A stretch of 35,122 bases of DNA from a virus (Duplodnaviria > Heunggongvirae > Uroviricota > Caudoviricetes): the IMG/VR virus record IMGVR_UViG_2713896901_000010; one strand, 5' to 3'. Position 1 is the first letter of the stretch. Each line of letters opens with the position of its first letter. The translations under genes were made by a program, and so were the position numbers. Below, in pieces: positions 1 to 7,424 of the stretch. The notes below the pieces were generated by a model. That model was not told the DNA's origin. It saw only the letters and a list, made by a program, of their open reading frames with translations, and ran no database searches.

Positions 1-258
1 ATGCAGCAGTATCACTATCCACTGGAAGACGGATTTACCGAAAGGATTCACACGCCGGGAGGCGTCAGGTCACTGGTGGAGGGATCGCACTTGATGAAAT
101 TACTCCGGGATCTCAATAAGGATGGATTTAATGTCGATGGCCCACTTGCCGAACTGACTGCACTGATTAACTACGTCACCAGCTCACAGATGTCTATGCA
201 GGATCTGCAAACACATCTCGACTATTGTGCCGAACAATTACGAAAACAAACCAGATAA
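1..258 (+). CDS. C-terminal fragment of an antirepressor-family protein (5' end upstream of window)
   Basis: Frame open from window edge to TAA 256-258; its ~80 aa share ~45% identity with the C-terminal module of the two complete antirepressor genes (576-1226, 2008-2952). Confidence 0.5.
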   Translation: MQQYHYPLEDGFTERIHTPGGVRSLVEGSHLMKLLRDLNKDGFNVDGPLAELTALINYVTSSQMSMQDLQTHLDYCAEQLRKQTR

Positions 259-304: not shown

Positions 305-394
305 ATTTACATCGCACTCCTCTTGTGCCATAGTAATCGGGCACTGGCAAAATCCAGTGTCGGGATTGGTCTCCCGGATTACTAAGTGGCGCAT

Positions 395-417
395 ACCACG
401 CCAGACGTGGTTTTTTT
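395..417 (+). terminator. rho-independent terminator
   Basis: Stem accacg/cgtggt with 5-nt loop followed by T7 run 411-417. Confidence 0.6.
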
Positions 418-575
418 ATGCGTATAGCACAGTCATGCCAGAATTATGGTGGGCTGAATGGGGGTCCGAAAGGACGCCGGTACCACTTAGGCCGGTAAGA
501 CCAACTCCGTTCAGTTCACCACCATCTGATTGGTCTCAGCGGTGGTGATGTAATTCGCTAAGTGGAGACGCCATA

Positions 576-1226
576 ATGAACGCTCAACTCATCCCCGTAT
601 TCAACGGCACTATATCCAACGAAACCGCTCTTCTCGTTAATGCCCGTGATTTACACACTTTCCTCGATGTGGGTAAGCGATTTGCTTCGTGGATTGTCGA
701 ACGAATTGCTGAATATGGTTTCGTTGAAAATCAAGACTTTATGATTATTTCCCAAGTTCGGGAAAAAATAGGCAGAGGCCGTCCTGCAAAAGACTACCAC
801 CTCACCCTCGATACAGCCAAAGAGCTGGCGATGGTCGAGCGTAACGAAAAAGGTCGTCAGGTACGACGCTACTTCATTGAATGCGAGAAACGTTTAAGAC
901 AACAAGAAACAAAAGTGGAGAAGGTCTTGTCAGGCTTCATGCCCGCCATTATGGAGGCGATCAAGCTGGAAGACAAAAAAGAATACAGCGCCCCGCTGAA
1001 GCCCGGCTACCGCAGTCTGATTCATTCTCCGTCTGGTGTTCTCGGCCTGACGGAGAACTCACTGCTGATGAATCTGCTGAACCAGTTACAGGACGACGGG
1101 CACGACGTATCGGGCGCGGCGGCGGAGCTGACAACCATGTTCTGCTACATCGTCGGTGTGAGCAAATGCCTGCGTGATATCCAGACACACGCGGAGTACA
1201 TCAACGACAAGGCAGGATTCTTCTGA
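576..1226 (+). CDS. phage antirepressor, KilAC-type N-terminal domain plus shared C-terminal module
   Basis: ATG 576 with GGAG 9 nt upstream; N-terminal ...DYHLTLDTAKELAMVERNEKGRQVRRYFIECEKR matches the KilA-C/ANT antirepressor signature; last 80 aa identical to the C-terminus of the 2008-2952 product. Confidence 0.8.
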   Translation: MNAQLIPVFNGTISNETALLVNARDLHTFLDVGKRFASWIVERIAEYGFVENQDFMIISQVREKIGRGRPAKDYHLTLDTAKELAMVERNEKGRQVRRYFIECEKRLRQQETKVEKVLSGFMPAIMEAIKLEDKKEYSAPLKPGYRSLIHSPSGVLGLTENSLLMNLLNQLQDDGHDVSGAAAELTTMFCYIVGVSKCLRDIQTHAEYINDKAGFF

Positions 1227-1318: not shown

Positions 1319-1534
1319 ATGAGGGGGGGAAGCATGGAACTGAACATCATCACATTAATGAAAGCGCTTATTGGCGGTGCAGGAAGTGGCTTTGCTCTTT
1401 CTGGCGGGCTGTCTATGATCATACCTACTTTCACAGTGACGACTGGCGTTGCCTACCTTTTTGCCATTACTGGCGGTCTGGCTATGGCAGGTACTTACAT
1501 TTTAAAAAAAATGAGTTCCGGTAGTGCAGACTGA
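1319..1534 (+). CDS. small glycine-zipper membrane peptide (66-71 aa), function unknown
   Basis: ATG 1319 or ATG 1334 preceded by GAGGGGGGG; product MELNIITLMKALIGG/AGSGFALSGGLSMIIPTFTVTTGVAYLFAITGGLAMAGTYILKK is hydrophobic with repeated small-xxx-small motifs; AT-rich. Confidence 0.55.
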   Translation: MRGGSMELNIITLMKALIGGAGSGFALSGGLSMIIPTFTVTTGVAYLFAITGGLAMAGTYILKKMSSGSAD

Positions 1535-1871
1535 GATCGTACAAGAATCACATTGGTACAATCCACAGACCGCTCAGGAGCTGGCGATCTTTTATTGTAT
1601 CCTTTGCATTGTGTATATAGTAATCCACCTGATATGGGATTTTCTCTCAAAAGAGACTGGTAGGTTTTCTGTTGTTAACCTTCAGTACAAACTGAATGAG
1701 GTATATTCATCAACCACATTCGCAACGAGTGGTTTTTTCCTCGTTATGTTATGCGACATGAATAACCCTCTTAGAACATCAGATGCGTTTATCATACCGC
1801 TTATCTTGGCAATGCTTACTGGATTCATGATATCAATATCCGCAATAGCGCCAAAAAAAGTTAACATTTAA
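1524..1871 (+). CDS. predicted 3-TM membrane protein (start uncertain, GTG 1524)
   Basis: Overlaps stop of upstream gene; three hydrophobic segments; no ATG before residue 75, so the start is unresolved; stop TAA 1869-1871 sits at the foot of a strong terminator. Confidence 0.4.
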   Translation: MQTEIVQESHWYNPQTAQELAIFYCILCIVYIVIHLIWDFLSKETGRFSVVNLQYKLNEVYSSTTFATSGFFLVMLCDMNNPLRTSDAFIIPLILAMLTGFMISISAIAPKKVNI

Positions 1872-1984: not shown

Positions 1985-2241
1985 CACATCCCTGTGCCGC
2001 CGTTCTGTCAGAAGAACCCTGCCTTGTCGTTGATGTACTCCGCGTGGGTCTGGATATCACGCAGGCACTTGCTCACACCGACGATGTAGCAGAACATGGT
2101 GGTCAGCTCCGCCGCCGCGCCCGATACATCGTGCCCGTCGTCCTGTAACTGGTTAAGCAGATTCATCAGCAGTGAGTTCTCCGTCAGGCCGAGAACACCC
2201 GACGGCGAATGAATCAGACTGCGGTAGCCGGGCTTCAGCGG
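1985..2241. repeat. inverted repeat arm 2 (partner of 994-1248)
   Basis: Reverse complement matches 994-1248 at ~95%. Confidence 0.8.
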
Positions 2242-2952
2242 ATAACCATAACATTTTGTCTGTGTTTTAATTGCCTCACGAAGCGCATCTAACATCTTGA
2301 CTGCCACTTCATCATTCTCTGATGCAGATCCAGCAGGGAGATGCTCCCCTTCAAGCGGAACCCGAGCAACAAGAGACAACGCTTCGGCGAATTGATCTTC
2401 ATCAATTTCTTTGTACGAACAGCCAAAATGAGATTTCAGTGACGACCACATGGTGATCATCGCCTTAGCCTGTTTTTCTTTTGGCAGAGACTGACCGCGA
2501 CTCATGACGAGTTGTTTAATGGCTTCCTGCTGTTCAGTGGTTATTTTACCCGGCAGCGCCTTTTTAGCTTTGCGTGGGTTAACCACATGGCCTTTAGTCC
2601 AGTACTCGTAGAGCACATCGTCACACTCTTCCTGATACTGGATTACCTTGTCGCGGATTTCAGGGCGGACTTTGTTAGGGCTGATGGTTTGCAACCAGCC
2701 AGCAAGTTTGCGAAGTGCCAAACAAATAATCTCACGGCGCTGTTCATCCCCAGGAAGCTGCATTGTGATTTTCACAATGCAGGTTTTAAACCGCTGCTTC
2801 ATTTTCGTAAACTGTGAAGCCCAATCCATACCCATGCCTTCAACGATAGGTTTCATTGGGGTGTACGGTTCTCCGTTGTGATTGACAACATAAAGTTCTG
2901 CGCCGTGGAATGGCACGTTGATAGTAGATACCGCTGTTGCTATACTCGCCAT
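2008..2952 (-). CDS. ant: antirepressor Ant (P22 Ant-like N-terminus plus shared C-terminal module)
   Basis: ATG 2952 with AGGA upstream; N-terminus ...INVPFHGAELYVVNHNGEPYTPMKPIVEGMG resembles P22 Ant ...SYVPFNGQQVRTVLIDGEPWF; sits downstream of arc as in P22 immI. Confidence 0.8.
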   Translation of the reverse strand: MASIATAVSTINVPFHGAELYVVNHNGEPYTPMKPIVEGMGMDWASQFTKMKQRFKTCIVKITMQLPGDEQRREIICLALRKLAGWLQTISPNKVRPEIRDKVIQYQEECDDVLYEYWTKGHVVNPRKAKKALPGKITTEQQEAIKQLVMSRGQSLPKEKQAKAMITMWSSLKSHFGCSYKEIDEDQFAEALSLVARVPLEGEHLPAGSASENDEVAVKMLDALREAIKTQTKCYGYPLKPGYRSLIHSPSGVLGLTENSLLMNLLNQLQDDGHDVSGAAAELTTMFCYIVGVSKCLRDIQTHAEYINDKAGFF

Positions 2953-3024
2953 GTCGTTAATTCCTATACGTAGTTTTACGATACTGAAGCCCTGACGGTC
3001 TGGCCACCGTTGGGCTTCGCTGTT

Positions 3025-3192
3025 TTATGCCACGCTATTCTTCTCACCAGTGAGTCCATACACTTTCCTCAGCTGATAGATAATCTCTGTATTGAACTTT
3101 CGGCATTCTTTTTCGCCATTTCTTTCAATAGCTAACTTCACATCGTCCGGAAAACGAACTCGTCGTTGACACATCTCTTTTGCTTTTTGCAT
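3025..3192 (-). CDS. arc: Arc-like ribbon-helix-helix repressor (55 aa)
   Basis: Internal ATG 3192 with AAGGAG at 7-nt spacing; RRVRFPDDVKLAIERNGEKECRKFNTEIIYQL parallels P22 Arc RWPREVLDLVRKVAEENGRSVNSEIYQRV. Confidence 0.75.
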   Translation of the reverse strand: MQKAKEMCQRRVRFPDDVKLAIERNGEKECRKFNTEIIYQLRKVYGLTGEKNSVA

Positions 3193-3206
3193 TTCATATC
3201 TCCTTG

Positions 3207-3266
3207 GCCCCACCGTGGGGCAAAACAATTGTCACACCGTGCGTCATTGATGTCAAGCACACGGTG
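3207..3266. promoter_or_regulatory. divergent arc/mnt control region with three spaced CACCGTG/CACGGTG heptamers
   Basis: caccgtg 3211-3217 (inside palindrome gccccaccgtggggc 3207-3221), caccgtg 3235-3241, cacggtg 3260-3266; spacing 24 and 25 bp. Confidence 0.5.
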
Positions 3267-3312
3267 AGGCATACTTCAATCATTGCAAGTAACTCAATAT
3301 TTGGTGAAGAAC

Positions 3313-3744
3313 ATGAGCAGAGAAGATCCACAACTAAGGATCAGACTTCCCGTTGAAGTAAAAGAAAAAATAGAAATTTCTGCAAAAGCCAATAAGCGAT
3401 CAATGAACGCTGAAATAGTACAACGTCTTGACACCAGCTTTCTGAAAGATATTCATGAAGATGACGTAATTTCTGCTTATGAAGCAAAAATTATTGCAAA
3501 CAATGCACGGCATGAAATATCAAATATTATTTTCAAAAGAACTTTTAATGAAATCAATAAGAAAATAACACTTGGACATACAAGTTTTTATATAAACCTT
3601 AATGACCTTGAACTGGAATCACTTGCAGATAATGATTACCAGATCATCTTTGAAAAAACATTTAATAAGCTCAATGAACTAGGTTACATCATCTGTGAAA
3701 ACTCATGGGATGCAGATGGTTTTGGAATTGAAATACCTGAATAG
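3313..3744 (+). CDS. mnt: Mnt-like RHH repressor with ~60-aa extra C-terminal extension
   Basis: ATG 3313 (table start 3283 is TTG); MSREDPQLRIRLPVEVKEKIEISAKANKRSMNAEIVQRL closely parallels P22 Mnt MARDDPHFNFRMPMEVREKLKFRAEANGRSMNSELLQIV; divergent from arc-ant as in P22. Confidence 0.8.
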   Translation: MSREDPQLRIRLPVEVKEKIEISAKANKRSMNAEIVQRLDTSFLKDIHEDDVISAYEAKIIANNARHEISNIIFKRTFNEINKKITLGHTSFYINLNDLELESLADNDYQIIFEKTFNKLNELGYIICENSWDADGFGIEIPE

Positions 3745-3786
3745 GAAGAACAAAAGGCGTGTACATATTACACGTCTTTAATACAA

Positions 3787-4398
3787 TTGAAAAACGCCAC
3801 ATTACTGATGTATGTTACAACAAGGAGCGATATTTTGAAAACCATATCTATATTAAAGGTTGCATTAGGCGTCGCTATTATTTTGACTCTCTCAATATTG
3901 TTTTATTTTTACCACAAAAAAACTGCTATTGCTCTTGATGGTCACGCGGCAAACTCATTTTTCTCAGAGTACATAGTGCCGCTATCAGGAAGCGGTATAA
4001 CAAATAAATATACTGACTATGACATCAAATATGGAATTGATGATGGGGAGACTATTGCATTACATGTAATCATTAAAAACCTAATGACAGTAAATAAAAA
4101 TACAGACTTCAACGATAAAAATACAATACATCACAACAACAGCAAAACATTAATTTCTTATAGTAGCAACATCTATACGGATAAATACCTAAAATACATC
4201 TCAGAAGATACAATAAAAGCAACCAGCGAAAAGTTAAAAAACATATATTGTGCATCCGGCAGTTTTCACAAATTATCGCCGCAAGAGCGTTTATTCTACG
4301 AAGCAAGAAAACAACGTAAGTCAATAATATTCCATTATTATGCTGATTCAGGGGAGTCACTCATATTTAATATTGGGGTTTCCCCTGAATCATGCTAA
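3787..4398 (+). CDS. membrane-anchored protein of unknown function at the sieA position
   Basis: Most likely start is TTG 3835 (AAGGAG 3822-3827, 7-nt spacer), alternative ATG 3808; one N-terminal TM helix then an Asn/Lys/Tyr-rich domain; very AT-rich. Confidence 0.55.
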   Translation: MKNATLLMYVTTRSDILKTISILKVALGVAIILTLSILFYFYHKKTAIALDGHAANSFFSEYIVPLSGSGITNKYTDYDIKYGIDDGETIALHVIIKNLMTVNKNTDFNDKNTIHHNNSKTLISYSSNIYTDKYLKYISEDTIKATSEKLKNIYCASGSFHKLSPQERLFYEARKQRKSIIFHYYADSGESLIFNIGVSPESC

Positions 4399-4409
4399 AG
4401 GCGTTTAAC

Positions 4410-7400
4410 TCACCGCATCACCGGATCCACCTGGTTTATTAGTGGCGCAATCCAGAACAGGTTATTGCCTGGTATCAGGGTTCGGACATTATGCACAATA
4501 CGATCACCGGCATCACCATTCAACACTCCTGCGGTCACATCAATGATGCTATCCGCAAGACCAAATGACGGTCCGAATAGAGATCCTACGAATCCACGAC
4601 TGGCATACCTAGACTGTGTGCCAGTGCCAAATAAAGCCCCCAGCCCAACAGCACCACCAGTAGCCTTTTCAGCCATGTTGTTATATTCCATCAATGGCCC
4701 AAGAATACCGGATCTATCTATACCCTCAAGCACCAGCTTCTCTGGTGACCAGTCAACATTTTTCCCTTTCGATGCTTCTTTTAGCGCATAGACCAGTGAG
4801 CCAAGAGCAATCTGAAATGCAGTGCCATAATAAAATTGCGCAGTTCCTTCCTGTAACCCACCAAGTAGCGCACGGTTGTATGAAGCCGTTGTGAATGATT
4901 TAAACTGAAATATCGTTCGCCCCATTGGAGTACTCGCCCATAAAGGTGTGTCACCAATACCGGGGGTGATGATAGTGTTATTAACGTCTTTCAGAACCGC
5001 TGACTGGAATACTCCGGCAACGTACTGATCGTCCCATTTATCAAAGTTACCAATGTGCCATCCATCAATTACCTCACCATGTTTCTCGAACTCACTGCGA
5101 ATACGCGCAGCCATATTGTCGTTGATACCGAGTTTTGCCATGCGACGTGCAGAAAACGCACCAGACAAAATACCGTCTGACGTGAGCATTCCGTTCATGG
5201 ATTTGTTTATGTCATTAAATCGATCCATGAGTGTCAGCTTGCCGAAGGCATCAGTAATTCGCTCCATTCCTGCTTCGACTGCTGTTGTCCTGGAAGAACT
5301 GTCAACAAGATCACCAATTGCACGAGAACGTGAATGTAGTACAGCTTCCAATCCAATCCCCATCTTCAACATCTCTTCTTTGCTGGCCTTAAATGCCGGT
5401 GATTGGGATATCTGAGAAGCATAGCCTTTCATGGTGTTACGGAAACCATTAACCATAACCCCTCTGGCCAGATCTGGAATAGCTGATACTGTCATTCCAC
5501 CGAGTTTGGTCGTGAAGTTCACATCCCGCAGAAAAGCGCCAGCACGAACAAAAAACGAAGACGGATCATCAGGCATACCATATGTACCAACAAGACGATC
5601 GCGTAATGCTGTTATGTCTCTGAGATCATTTGCTCTTGATTTTGAAAGTCTGGACTGTTCTTTCCGTAATTCCTTTTCGTACTTTCGCATTAATGAATCG
5701 AGTTTACCCTGAGGAACAACTTCACCATTGCTCTCATAACGTGCTTTCAGATTTGCCACACTTTCGTCATATTTCGCCTTTATTTTTTCAGGCACTTCCC
5801 GTAACAGACTGTCATATTCGTCCTCAATTAATTGCAGACGCTCAGTCATAGTTCGTTTGCCAAATGTTCTCGTCAACTCAATTTCTGCTGCCGCTTCACG
5901 GATATGACGTTGCAGCACGTAATTCACATCACTTTCAAGATAATCCCTGATAAGACTATCAGGAACATTTAATGTTCTTTCTTTCGTACTACCTGCGGCT
6001 TTTACAGAAAATACGCTGACAAAATCCTGTGGAACCTTAGCACCAGTAATTTTATTAATTACGATATCCGCTGCAATTTCAGCATCCTCAGGATCCAGTG
6101 TTTTATTTCCTCTCGACCACCAGCCAACCAAAATACGTCGAAATTTATCGCGTTCACTGATTATTTTTCCAACTTTATATATGCGTGGGAAATAGCTTGC
6201 CTGGCCTAATGCTTTCAGTTCTTCATCTGGCGGCAATAAACCAAGCTTTTGCATTTCAACTTTCACCCGATTTAATACAGTTCGCATCGCCTGCGCCGTT
6301 TCCTGAACAACAGGATTAGCATGCACATCACCGCTTCGCATAGCATTCCCAACCTGCTGACGAAATGAATCAAAACTCATGTCACCACCATCAGCTTTAT
6401 ACTTTGCGTATGCCTGTTTATTTCCGACAACAACAGCAGCTTCTTCACGCTGCCATCCACGTGTACGGGTTTCTACAGCTACCGGTGTTTCAATCCCCCT
6501 TTCATTTCCTTTAAGGGTGAAATTATTTTCGGCTAACTCCAGCGTTGTTTTTCGCACCGTCTTGGACGGAGACTCCATTAACCTTGTCAAAGGAGTAAGA
6601 TAGCTCCCTGCTTTCCATGCAGCCTTTCCAACCCACCCACCGGAAACAGGGGTTAAATCATCCAGAGTCGCTGTATCAATTTTCATAGCACCAACACTAC
6701 CACCATCGGAAAGCGAAGCGGCAGCCCTGTCAGTCGCTGATGTAATGCTCATATTATCAAGAGCATCAGCAACCTCACGTGTGGCTGCAGCCCGGACGGA
6801 TGGCGAAAGCGCAACACCAGCACTGGCAAACACGCCGCTCATCATCGCACCCGCTGCAACGTGAGCGGCACTTTCACCCCATGAGCGTGTTATTTGCTGA
6901 TTATTCAGTACAACCTCGCTTAATGCTGTACCGGCAGCACCAATCGCAATCTGTGAGCCAATACGCGCCAGTGCCCCTCCTTGAGCACCGGGAATAAACA
7001 TTGACGCAACAGTAACCGGATCCATTCCCGCAGCAATACTGGCAAGGGTTCCAACTACGCCAGCATCAGACAATAAACGTCTGTCTTCATTTTCATCATC
7101 TATCTGCTGCTTAATCCACGCCGTTTCCTCTGGCGATCGGGAATCTGCAAATTTCGCCCCCCAGTATTCATAACCGTGCAACTCATTTTTATCAGCATAT
7201 GGGTTATAACCCTCGACCGGTTCAAACTGTCTGGCTGGGCGGAAAAAACCAGACAGAATATTGTTCTGTCGCATTGCAGCCCCCCATACGGAAGGCTCAG
7301 GTGGCAATGGCTCAGGATTAGCCCCTTCCGGAAGGGCAACATCAAACCCAGTTTGTTCCGGCAAAACATTACCTGACGGGATCAGTCCGTTATTAAGATC

Positions 7401-7424
7401 TTCAGCTTGTGCATAAACTGGCAT
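4410..7424 (-). CDS. internal virion / ejection protein (1004 aa)
   Basis: Long ORF ending the structural operon; Ala/Gly-rich hydrophobic N-terminal third; size and position analogous to T7 gp16 / P22 gp16-class ejection proteins. Confidence 0.7.
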   Translation of the reverse strand: MPVYAQAEDLNNGLIPSGNVLPEQTGFDVALPEGANPEPLPPEPSVWGAAMRQNNILSGFFRPARQFEPVEGYNPYADKNELHGYEYWGAKFADSRSPEETAWIKQQIDDENEDRRLLSDAGVVGTLASIAAGMDPVTVASMFIPGAQGGALARIGSQIAIGAAGTALSEVVLNNQQITRSWGESAAHVAAGAMMSGVFASAGVALSPSVRAAATREVADALDNMSITSATDRAAASLSDGGSVGAMKIDTATLDDLTPVSGGWVGKAAWKAGSYLTPLTRLMESPSKTVRKTTLELAENNFTLKGNERGIETPVAVETRTRGWQREEAAVVVGNKQAYAKYKADGGDMSFDSFRQQVGNAMRSGDVHANPVVQETAQAMRTVLNRVKVEMQKLGLLPPDEELKALGQASYFPRIYKVGKIISERDKFRRILVGWWSRGNKTLDPEDAEIAADIVINKITGAKVPQDFVSVFSVKAAGSTKERTLNVPDSLIRDYLESDVNYVLQRHIREAAAEIELTRTFGKRTMTERLQLIEDEYDSLLREVPEKIKAKYDESVANLKARYESNGEVVPQGKLDSLMRKYEKELRKEQSRLSKSRANDLRDITALRDRLVGTYGMPDDPSSFFVRAGAFLRDVNFTTKLGGMTVSAIPDLARGVMVNGFRNTMKGYASQISQSPAFKASKEEMLKMGIGLEAVLHSRSRAIGDLVDSSSRTTAVEAGMERITDAFGKLTLMDRFNDINKSMNGMLTSDGILSGAFSARRMAKLGINDNMAARIRSEFEKHGEVIDGWHIGNFDKWDDQYVAGVFQSAVLKDVNNTIITPGIGDTPLWASTPMGRTIFQFKSFTTASYNRALLGGLQEGTAQFYYGTAFQIALGSLVYALKEASKGKNVDWSPEKLVLEGIDRSGILGPLMEYNNMAEKATGGAVGLGALFGTGTQSRYASRGFVGSLFGPSFGLADSIIDVTAGVLNGDAGDRIVHNVRTLIPGNNLFWIAPLINQVDPVMR

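What the first reader, a model, noticed from the sequence alone, without database searches (positions are those of the whole stretch)
3745..4398. AT-rich membrane protein at the position P22 uses for sieA, probably TTG-initiated
The gene lies between the last ejection-protein gene and mnt, co-directional with mnt. It encodes an N-terminally anchored protein with an Asn/Lys/Tyr-rich domain and very low GC, the signature of a horizontally acquired moron. The best translation start is TTG 3835 with AAGGAG at ideal spacing. By position it is a candidate superinfection-exclusion or injection-blocking factor, possibly acting with the extended Mnt-like protein immediately upstream.
Basis: partly seen in the sequence, partly recalled or inferred. 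Interest (0 to 1): 0.55.

Follow-up and report, generated by a model that had tools for sequence, protein, structure and literature searches.

The report
Periplasmic prophage protein beside ejection genes
A real but uncharacterised prophage gene encodes a small protein, tethered to the inner membrane and facing the periplasm, that always sits next to the phage's DNA-ejection genes and most likely blocks infection by related phages, although no experiment has tested this.

Summary
Window 3835-4398 (+) is a 187-aa gene with a TTG start, AAGGAG 7 nt upstream, 33% GC against 48% for the window, and one N-terminal membrane helix. It is gp39 of E. coli phage TL-2011b (phrog_8033), annotated everywhere as hypothetical. 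It lies downstream of an Mnt-like gene in a true P22-type immI region (arc, sar RNA, ant) and converges on the last ejection-protein gene.

It is not a SieA homologue, and the ejection module is T7 gp14/15/16-like rather than P22-like. Distant relatives (27-51% identity; Providencia, Proteus, metagenomes) keep two invariant cysteines. Some carry a cleavable signal peptide, so the domain is periplasmic.

An MSA-based AlphaFold model (pLDDT 80) has the AspS/PA3611 pilotin fold, with the cysteines where that fold has its disulfide. In 41 of 41 loci the gene abuts the 3' end of the gp16-like gene. The Mnt-like neighbour is not conserved. One natural variant is fused to a copy of the gp16-like protein's conserved N-terminal segment. 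Sibling prophages carry other small membrane proteins in the same slot.

Best reading: a periplasmic superinfection-exclusion factor aimed at the T7-type ejectosome. This is inferred, not shown.

The parts
3835..4398 (+). Coding sequence of the 187-aa protein (TTG start, TAA stop). It equals TL-2011b gp39, phrog_8033 and WP_059217155.1.
3822..3827 (+). Shine-Dalgarno sequence AAGGAG, 7 nt upstream of TTG 3835.
   Evidence: Read from the sequence. The start agrees with the RefSeq, PGAP and PHROG annotations.
3844..3912 (+). N-terminal transmembrane signal-anchor helix, residues about 4-26. A sister clade has a cleavable signal peptide here instead.
   Evidence: Hydropathy; AF2 helix 2-26; signal-peptide clade MKKLIPLLLIFPFIAFA|S
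3925..4395 (+). Periplasmic domain, residues 31-187, with the AspS/PA3611-like topology a1-b1-b2-b3-a2-a3-b4-b5-a4.
4075..4146 (+). Asn/Lys-rich variable loop, residues 81-104. It is a low-confidence insertion present only in the E. coli, L042 and L030-type clades, and it carries a 21-nt in-frame indel polymorphism.
4249..4251 (+). Codon of invariant Cys139, at the end of helix a2.
   Evidence: Alignment A2; model; equivalent to AspS Cys74
4393..4395 (+). Codon of invariant Cys187, the last residue, in the short C-terminal helix a4.
   Evidence: Alignment A2; equivalent to AspS Cys111
3753..3779 (+). 11-bp-stem hairpin (AAAGGCGTGTA / TACACGTCTTT) between the Mnt-like gene and the target. It may be a weak or bidirectional terminator, or a processing site.
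   Evidence: Function not shown.
3760..3787 (+). Weak sigma-70-like match (TGTACA-16-TACAAT, 9 of 12) that could be the gene's own promoter.
   Evidence: The count is no higher than in shuffled sequence, and one natural allele (L025) changes the -10 A. Weak evidence only.
3313..3744 (+). Upstream Arc/Mnt-family gene. It has an RHH N-terminus plus a C-terminal extension of about 90 aa, equals phrog_1388, and has equally low GC (0.32). It is probably co-transcribed with the target.
4410..7424 (-). Convergent T7 gp16-like internal virion (ejection) protein gene, 1004 aa. It is the invariant neighbour of the family.
   Evidence: phrog_342 E 5e-209
7065..7319 (-). Segment encoding gp16-like residues 36-120. 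This conserved N-terminal motif is duplicated and fused to the family domain in variant P0021.
4416..4460 (.). The 45 bp at the 3' end of the gp16-like gene. It contains a small hairpin (4420-4435) followed by a T-rich tail on the + strand, and it marks the boundary of the mosaic cassette.

Best explanation
The gene encodes a type II (N-in, C-out) inner-membrane-tethered periplasmic protein. It belongs to a small family (phrog_8033) that is specific to temperate podophages with a T7-type ejectosome.

The periplasmic domain of about 155 aa has the AspS/PA3611 fold and is locked by a Cys139-Cys187 disulfide. It has no conserved catalytic-type residues, so it looks like a binding module.

The gene is transcribed against the late operon. 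Transcription comes either from the Mnt promoter, as the second gene of the mnt operon, or from its own promoter. It would therefore be made in the lysogen.

Proposed mechanism (inferred):
1. A related phage ejects its gp14/gp15/gp16-like core proteins unfolded into the periplasm.
2. The tethered domain captures a segment of them, most likely the conserved N-terminal segment of the gp16-like protein.
3. This prevents assembly or function of the trans-envelope DNA conduit.

The result is superinfection exclusion at the DNA-entry step. That makes it a functional analogue of P22 SieA but not a homologue.

Shown here: the gene, its start, the anchor, periplasmic location by homology, fold similarity, synteny, the fusion, and the replacement-rate excess. 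Inferred: expression in lysogens, binding of gp16-like protein, and the exclusion phenotype.
For: 1. **Periplasmic location.** All members begin with basic residues followed by a hydrophobic segment. The clade at about 50% identity has a classical SPase-I signal peptide (AFA|S). Two cysteines are invariant across 14 divergent members.
3. **Linkage.** In 41 of 41 loci the gene ends 0-30 nt from the stop of the gp16-like gene and converges on it. Two further members read antisense into that gene's 3' end. Family divergence tracks gp16-like divergence.
4. **Fusion.** In P0021 (locus L049) the family domain is fused in frame to a copy of gp16-like residues about 38-106 (E 1e-12), followed by a second TM helix with a positively charged tail. 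This is topologically coherent with both parts lying in the periplasm.
5. **Slot behaviour.** Near-identical E. coli prophages carry other small membrane proteins at the same place: a 175-aa protein with an N-terminal TM helix and a 98-aa protein with two TM helices. This mirrors the sieA slot of P22-like phages.
6. **Polymorphism.** Among 20 E. coli-type loci the target has 11 non-synonymous and 4 synonymous changes. The Mnt-like gene has 1:7, the gp16-like gene 23:44 and the gp15-like gene 17:48 (Fisher p = 0.009, 0.008, 0.002).
7. **Orientation.** The position in a P22-type immI region downstream of mnt fits prophage expression.
8. **Precedents.** P22 SieA acts on ejection proteins (PMC10883804). 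A periplasmic effector selects escape mutations in T7 gp15/gp16 (PMC13128918).
Against: - There are no functional data of any kind, and none on expression. The promoter-like matches are weak and no more frequent than in shuffled sequence.
- Fold similarity is moderate. Foldseek E-values are 0.2-0.5. There is no sequence-level support: hhalign against E. coli AspS/YghG gives E 0.08 and probability 0.7%, and there is no Pfam hit.
- I could not measure the Cys-Cys distance in the model.
- Strict synteny could reflect conserved gene order alone.
- The fusion is known from a single contig and a cluster of two sequences. It could be a rearrangement scar.
- The 11:4 non-synonymous to synonymous ratio is close to the neutral expectation of about 3.8:1. 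It shows relaxed or diversifying evolution, not proven positive selection.
- The positive-inside rule is ambiguous for the E. coli allele, with K2 and K8 before the helix and H27, K28 and K29 after it. The topology rests on homology.
Confidence: 0.5

Rival explanations
1. It is a lysogenic-conversion or envelope factor unrelated to phage exclusion. The periplasmic AspS/PA3611-like domain binds a host periplasmic or outer-membrane partner, such as a secretin-type protein, and changes host fitness. The position next to the ejection genes only reflects a convenient cargo slot.
For: The closest folds are secretin pilotins and a secreted Pseudomonas protein. The gene is AT-rich and opposed to the late operon, as many morons are. 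Sibling prophages carry unrelated cargo in the slot.
Against: The family is never found away from the gp16-like gene, with only 16 representatives among 1.84 billion proteins and 41 of 41 loci syntenic. The fusion to a gp16-like segment points to the ejectosome. There is no lipobox, so it cannot be an outer-membrane pilotin. The hosts span genera with different secretion systems.
Confidence: 0.2
2. It is an accessory of the phage's own lytic cycle that acts in the periplasm. It might protect the already infected cell from its own progeny or from the transglycosylase domain of the gp15-like protein, in the manner of T4 Spackle. Alternatively it might modulate lysis.
For: The adjacent gp15-like protein carries an SLT transglycosylase domain. 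The architecture of a periplasmic domain with an N-terminal TM helix resembles i-spanins and Spackle-type proteins (the Spackle comparison is from my own knowledge).
Confidence: 0.12
3. It is a divergent SieA homologue, a fourth sequence type.
For: It occupies the same genomic slot in a homologous immI region. BLAST found one chance-level local similarity after a TM helix, AANSFFSEYI against EANGFNKEFI, at E 0.15.
Against: It has a single TM helix, whereas SieA types are polytopic. The FxRYPxEAxxFNK motif is absent. All 14 family members hit only phrog_8033, while P22 SieA hits phrog_7745. The SieA motif is cytoplasmic, whereas this domain is periplasmic.
Confidence: 0.02
4. It is a decaying or functionless ORF kept by hitch-hiking with the ejection genes.
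For: Polymorphism among E. coli alleles is close to neutral, at 11 non-synonymous to 4 synonymous changes. Some database entries are frameshifted at A-runs (P0003, P0007, P0009).
Against: All 19 E. coli-type loci, 36 complete genomes and all distant loci examined are intact. Sixteen columns, including both cysteines, are invariant down to 27% identity. The model is confidently folded. P0003 differs from the window by two indels, at least the C-terminal one at an A-run, which looks more like a sequencing error than a real allele.
Confidence: 0.05

Closest known systems
P22 SieA (superinfection exclusion A; Leavitt et al. 2024, PMC10883804)
   Same: It occupies the same genomic slot: convergent with and directly after the last ejection-protein gene, on the mnt side of a homologous immI region (arc, sar, ant). 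It is also a small membrane-associated protein that is AT-rich and opposed to the late operon. SieA is shown to block DNA injection, with escape mutations in ejection proteins gp16 and gp20. That is the behaviour proposed here.
   Different: There is no sequence or profile similarity. SieA is a polytopic inner-membrane protein with a cytoplasmic FxRYPxEAxxFNK motif, whereas this protein has one anchor helix and a folded periplasmic domain with a disulfide. The ejection proteins it would target are T7 gp14/15/16-like, not P22 gp7/20/16.
AspS/EpsS/YghG type II secretion pilotins and P. aeruginosa PA3611 (PDB 4ftf, 6i2v, 5zdh, 3npd; PMC3542185)
   Same: These are the best structural matches. The order of secondary-structure elements is the same, two conserved cysteines sit at the end of a2 and in a4, and both are periplasmic. 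AspS uses a hydrophobic groove to bind a short disordered segment of its partner.
   Different: There is no detectable sequence homology. There is no lipobox, so it cannot act as an outer-membrane pilotin. It is tethered to the inner membrane or soluble, it is prophage-encoded with no secretin gene nearby, and it has an extra variable loop between b2 and b3.
HXS system effector HxsA (PMC13128918)
   Same: It is a periplasmic protein that blocks phage DNA entry, and T7 escape mutations map to ejectosome proteins gp15 and gp16.
   Different: HxsA is a host-encoded four-gene system with a peptide matured by an rSAM enzyme. It has a broad spectrum, no gp15/gp16 binding was detected, and its sequence and architecture are unrelated.
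Periplasmic or membrane-anchored Sie proteins of other phages: T4 Sp and Imm, P1 Sim, lactococcal Sie2009 (named from my own knowledge; not compared by sequence here except through PHROGs)
   Same: They are small phage-encoded proteins, with a signal peptide or an N-terminal anchor, that act outside the cytoplasm to stop DNA entry by related phages.
   Different: No family member matches any PHROG annotated as superinfection exclusion. The phage types and targets also differ.

Membership tests
P22 SieA family (types A, B, C) | Polytopic inner-membrane protein with several predicted TM helices | tested here: not met
   The protein has only one hydrophobic segment, residues about 4-26, and the AF2 model has a single TM helix. 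The SieA description is in PMC10883804.
P22 SieA family (types A, B, C) | Conserved C-terminal motif FxRYPxEAxxFNK | tested here: not met
   The motif is absent from the sequence and from the family consensus.
P22 SieA family (types A, B, C) | Sequence or profile similarity to SieA (phrog_7745) | tested here: not met
   BLASTP gives E 0.15. All 14 members hit only phrog_8033. P22 SieA hits phrog_7745.
P22 SieA family (types A, B, C) | Located between the last ejection-protein gene and the immI/tailspike region, opposed to the late operon | tested here: met
P22 SieA family (types A, B, C) | Necessary and sufficient to block DNA injection by related phages, with escape mutations in ejection proteins | not testable with these tools
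   This requires plating, DNA-entry and escape-mutant experiments.
AspS/PA3611 fold family | Fold with element order a1-b1-b2-b3-a2-a3-b4-b5-a4 | tested here: met
AspS/PA3611 fold family | Two conserved cysteines tying C-terminal helix a4 to a2 | tested here: met
   C139 (end of a2) and C187 (a4) are invariant in 14 sequences. hhalign places C139 opposite the YghG cysteine. The S-S distance in the model was not measured.
AspS/PA3611 fold family | Detectable sequence or profile homology | tested here: not met
   hhalign of A2 against E. coli YghG gives E 0.08 and probability 0.7%. There is no Pfam match. No PDB sequence match to 4ftf or 3npd was found.
AspS/PA3611 fold family | Lipoprotein signal (lipobox) and genetic association with a T2SS secretin, which define pilotin function | tested here: not met
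   The N-termini are TM anchors or SPase-I signal peptides with no lipobox. The context is always a prophage.
phrog_8033 | Full-length match to the family profile | tested here: met
   E 2.6e-126 over profile positions 1-187 of 187. All 14 aligned members match.
Two-component spanin, inner-membrane subunit (Rz-like) | N-terminal TM helix plus a periplasmic domain, encoded in the lysis cassette with an o-spanin lipoprotein gene | tested here: not met
   The architecture is superficially similar, but the gene lies outside the lysis cassette. TL-2011b's spanins are of the Bcep176 type (PMC6139136). Lysis genes lie elsewhere in related loci.
Known anti-phage defence proteins (PADLOC) | Significant match to a PADLOC model | tested here: not met
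   The only hit is ThsB TIR-like at E 0.011 and 14 bits, which is not significant.

The most novel reading that the evidence does not exclude
phrog_8033 would be a new class of superinfection-exclusion protein. It would be a periplasmic, disulfide-locked domain of the AspS/PA3611 fold, tethered to the inner membrane or secreted. It would capture the conserved N-terminal segment of the incoming gp16-like ejection protein and so abort assembly of a T7-type ejectosome. It would be the first phage-encoded exclusion factor known for T7-type ejection machinery. It would sit in the same slot as SieA but be unrelated to it. At least one natural variant would have gone on to fuse a decoy copy of its target.
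Probability: 0.35. Interest if true: 0.7.

Novelty: new variant of a known kind. Interest (0 to 1): 0.55.

Why it matters
Only one exclusion system against short-tailed phages, P22 SieA, has been dissected. The authors of that study say so themselves.

A second, unrelated protein in the equivalent slot of a phage with T7-type ejection proteins would show that the position after the last ejection gene is a general home for entry-blocking genes. It would also provide a soluble, foldable periplasmic probe for studying how gp15/gp16-type conduits assemble.

The practical side is that about 0.7% of complete E. coli genomes carry the gene (36 of 5426), as do E. albertii and E. marmotae strains. It could limit the host range of therapeutic or biocontrol podophages that use similar ejection proteins.

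Tried and rejected
- **SieA homology.** Rejected.
- **Pfam, NCBIfam and PADLOC.** No meaningful hit.
- **BFVD viral structure library.** Nothing significant. The afdb50 library was not available.
- **Single-sequence AF2.** Uninformative, with pLDDT 47.
- **The search for related loci with the full alignment.** It failed for lack of a conserved stretch, so I used sub-alignments.
- **Spanin or lysis role.** Rejected.
- **Enzyme role.** Unlikely. The invariant residues are aromatic, aliphatic, Pro and Cys, with no conserved acidic, His or Ser residues.
- **Functional partnership with the Mnt-like protein.** Rejected as a family property.
- **Positive selection.** Not claimed. The replacement excess is significant only relative to neighbouring genes.
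- **Clustering of gp16-like or gp15-like polymorphisms, or co-variation with target alleles.** Nothing informative was seen.
- **Promoter and terminator scans.** These gave only weak consensus matches.

Full report
**1. What is in the sequence**

The window is an Escherichia prophage whose 3000-4700 segment is 99.2% identical to phage TL-2011b.

AAGGAG lies at 3822-3827 and TTG at 3835, 7 nt further on. RefSeq for TL-2011b gp39, PGAP for E. coli 13E0780 and the 187-position profile phrog_8033 (E 2.6e-126) all use that start.

The gene has 33% GC against 48.4% for the window. The product has one hydrophobic helix, residues about 4-26, and is rich in Ile, Ser, Lys, Tyr and Asn. The exact protein is WP_059217155.1. 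Its 90%-identity cluster holds 197 sequences from E. coli, E. albertii and E. marmotae, all named 'hypothetical protein'. The gene, together with its upstream neighbour, is present in 36 of 5426 complete E. coli genomes.

**2. Surroundings**

On the minus strand to the right lie genes for a tail protein and four core or ejection proteins:
- a 154-aa protein;
- a 191-aa protein that PGAP calls 'virion core protein, T7 gp14 family';
- a 905-aa protein with an SLT transglycosylase domain;
- a 1004-aa protein matching phrog_342, 'internal virion protein with endolysin domain', at E 5e-209.

tblastn with the 1004-aa protein finds Klebsiella, Vibrio, Alteromonas, Pelagibacter and Ralstonia podophages and not P22 relatives. 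The ejection module is therefore T7-like.

To the left lies a homologue of P22 immI:
- an Arc/Mnt-family gene at 3313-3744 (+);
- an Arc-like gene at 3025-3192 (-);
- a sar antisense RNA at 2954-3021, scoring 45.2 bits against a gathering score of 43;
- ant at 2008-2952 (-), 40% identical to P22 Ant.

P22 has the same order, 16 > | < sieA < orf59a < mnt | arc > ant > 9.

**3. Not SieA**

P22 SieA is 164 aa and polytopic, with a cytoplasmic FxRYPxEAxxFNK motif. It shows no similarity to the target: BLASTP gives E 0.15. SieA falls in phrog_7745, while all 14 family members hit only phrog_8033. Pfam, NCBIfam and PADLOC give nothing meaningful.

**4. The family**

An exhaustive HMMER pass over 1.84 billion representatives finds only 16 proteins. 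A profile search adds members from Providencia and Proteus.

The alignment of 14 sequences, at 28-41% identity to the window protein apart from one close allele (P0001, 96%), has 16 invariant columns. They are L34, A39, F42, F43, Y46, P49, Y62, I74, L134, Y138, C139, Y168, Y169, F178, P184 and C187. None is a typical catalytic residue.

Every member starts with basic residues followed by a hydrophobic segment. The clade at about 50% identity instead has a textbook cleavable signal peptide, MKKLIPLLLIFPFIAFA|SP. Together with the two invariant cysteines, this places the conserved domain in the periplasm. The E. coli allele is a signal-anchored (type II) version.

**5. Fold**

With the 14-sequence alignment, AlphaFold2 gives pLDDT 80.3 and pTM 0.68. 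The single sequence gave 46.8. After the TM helix the order of elements is a1, b1, b2, a low-confidence loop (81-104), b3, a2, a3, b4, b5 and a short a4.

The AspS paper describes exactly this topology. It also describes a conserved disulfide, Cys74-Cys111, that ties a4 to a2 and is present in PA3611 as well. It proposes that a hydrophobic groove between b1-b2 and a2 binds the secretin S-domain. The family's two invariant cysteines sit at the end of a2 and in a4.

Sequence-level homology is not demonstrable. hhalign against E. coli YghG gives E 0.08, although the alignment is in register with the cysteine aligned. There is no lipobox, so the protein is not a pilotin. My conclusion is that the fold and the mode of action (a periplasmic peptide-binding module) are shared, while family membership is not shown.

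**6. Linkage to the gp16-like gene**

I collected 41 loci that carry a family member and mapped the window's proteins onto them. In all of them the family gene ends 0-30 nt from the stop codon of the gp16-like gene and converges on it.

Two further members, P0013 and P0014, have C-terminal tails that are the antisense translation of the gp16-like 3' end. They therefore abut that gene as well.

Family identity falls together with gp16-like identity:

| Group | Family identity | gp16-like identity |
|---|---|---|
| E. coli clade | 92-99% | 99-100% |
| Intermediate clades | 41-51% | 68-82% |
| L011 | 29% | 67% |
| Proteus (L007, L010) and L008 | 27-28% | 50% |
| Providencia | 29% | 33-42% |

The Mnt-like gene accompanies the family only in the E. 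coli clade. L042 has a different Arc-like gene that overlaps the homologue's start, which suggests an operon. Providencia has a divergent 175-aa gene upstream. Other clades have terminase or other neighbours.

**7. A natural fusion**

P0021 (264 aa, locus L049) consists of three parts:
- the family domain;
- about 70 residues that are 38% identical to residues 38-106 of its own gp16-like neighbour (E 1e-12), 50% identical to window gp16-like residues 66-111 (E 1e-11), and up to 61% identical to the Providencia-type gp16-like protein;
- a second TM helix with a Lys-rich tail.

The copy is in the sense orientation on the family gene's strand, so it is an inverted partial duplication kept in frame. 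The predicted topology puts both the domain and the copied segment in the periplasm. The copied segment is conserved across all clades examined (44-100% identity). No other locus has such an extra copy.

I read this as Rosetta-stone-type evidence that the family acts on, or mimics, the gp16-like N-terminal region. The caveat is that it rests on one contig.

**8. The slot**

Forty-six E. coli genomes carry a near-identical gp16-like 3' end, and 36 carry the target. Similarity breaks off within a few bases of the gp16-like stop codon (query positions 5-7).

In the others the same slot holds one of two genes:
- a 175-aa protein with an N-terminal TM helix (WP_000451652, phrog_21690), in the same orientation;
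- a 98-aa protein with two TM helices (WP_001555166, phrog_21905).

The 175-aa protein is unrelated to the family (PHROG assignments). The slot therefore collects small envelope proteins, as the sieA slot does in P22-like phages.

**9. Evolutionary rate and composition**

Counts of polymorphisms among 20 E. coli-type loci:

| Gene | Non-synonymous | Synonymous | Fisher p against target |
|---|---|---|---|
| Target | 11 | 4 | - |
| Mnt-like | 1 | 7 | 0.009 |
| gp16-like | 23 | 44 | 0.008 |
| gp15-like | 17 | 48 | 0.002 |

Three of the replacements lie in a2 (residues 129, 131, 132) and one in b2 (residue 75). In AspS these elements border the proposed binding groove; applying that to this protein is my inference. 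The ratio is near the neutral expectation, so I claim a raised replacement rate and not positive selection.

The family gene is 7-22 GC points below the adjacent gp16-like gene in every clade, including phages with 53-54% GC. AT-richness is therefore a family trait and not a sign of recent arrival.

**10. Expression signals**

An 11-bp-stem hairpin lies at 3753-3779, between the Mnt-like gene and the target. A weak promoter-like match lies at 3760-3787.

No terminator separates the target from the convergent gp16-like gene, because only 11 nt lie between them. Late transcription must therefore run antisense through the target. These features fit expression in the lysogen and silencing during lytic growth, as in P22. 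None of this is shown.

**11. Verdict**

The most likely function is superinfection exclusion at the DNA-entry step, by a periplasmic AspS/PA3611-fold binding domain aimed at the T7-type ejectosome. My confidence is about 0.5.

Rivals and their confidences:
- a host-directed envelope factor (0.2);
- a lytic-cycle periplasmic accessory (0.12);
- a functionless ORF (0.05);
- a SieA homologue (0.02).

It is a new variant of a known kind, the prophage entry-exclusion moron, belonging to an uncharacterised family with a narrow distribution.

Noticed in passing
L049 2958-3752 (protein P0021); corresponds to window gp16-like residues 36-120 (window 7065-7319, -): One natural family member is fused in frame to a diverged sense copy of the N-terminal conserved segment of the gp16-like ejection protein, followed by a second TM helix. 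The copy resembles a Providencia-type gp16-like protein (61% identity) more than its own neighbour (38%).
   Followed up: partly
window 4416-4460; L048 4001-4045: The last 45 bp of the gp16-like gene are 100% conserved as unannotated intergenic DNA in at least 34 other E. coli genomes, including ST131. There they lie in a prophage with different (DUF919-type) ejection proteins, next to the 98-aa two-TM cargo gene. This looks like a mosaic junction or a retained terminator-like hairpin (4420-4435).
   Followed up: partly
L043 and L044 4448-4975 (+); L045 4680-4976 (-): Sibling E. coli prophages with near-identical ejection genes carry other small membrane proteins in the same slot. One is WP_000451652 (175 aa, N-terminal TM helix, phrog_21690). 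The other is WP_001555166 (98 aa, two TM helices, phrog_21905). Both are of unknown function.
   Followed up: partly
window 2954-3021 (+): A sar antisense RNA (Rfam RF00262, 45.2 bits against a gathering score of 43) lies between the Arc-like gene and ant. The region is therefore a true P22-type immI.
   Followed up: no
window 328-526 (+) and 576-1226 (+): isrK (65.5 bits) and C4 antisense RNA (61.2 bits) lie directly upstream of an AntA-type antirepressor gene, together with a c4 a1b1 target match below its gathering score. This is a second, P1/Gifsy-type antirepressor module in the same prophage.
   Followed up: no
window 1-258, 576-1226, 2008-2952: Three antirepressor-like ORFs share a C-terminal domain of about 80 aa (phrog_450/15539). 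It is identical in the 216-aa and 314-aa proteins, whose last 82 residues are the same.
   Followed up: no
window 3313-3744 (+): The Mnt-like protein has an Arc RHH domain plus an AT-rich C-terminal extension of about 90 aa that contains an internal repeat (33-nt copies at 3526-3558 and 3643-3675; IIFKRTFNEINK and IIFEKTFNKLNE). The TL-2011b reference has a 1-nt indel near the 5' end, so its annotated gp40 lacks the RHH part.
   Followed up: partly
window 3207-3271: Three spaced copies of CACCGTG or its complement CACGGTG, 24-25 nt apart and partly in inverted orientation, lie at the start of the Arc-like gene and in the divergent intergenic region towards the Mnt-like gene. They are candidate Arc/Mnt operators.
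   Followed up: no
window 1319-1534 (+) and 1524-1871 (+): Two overlapping small membrane-protein genes lie where TL-2011b has a YafO toxin gene. One encodes a Gly-rich 71-aa protein (phrog_13406) and the other a 115-aa multi-TM protein (phrog_36716). Both are of unknown function.
   Followed up: partly
proteins P0003, P0007, P0009 (database entries): Several database members have frameshifted C-terminal tails, in P0003 at a run of A (window about 4236-4241). P0003 differs from the window by two such indels, so these are probably sequencing errors, though slippage was not excluded.
   Followed up: no
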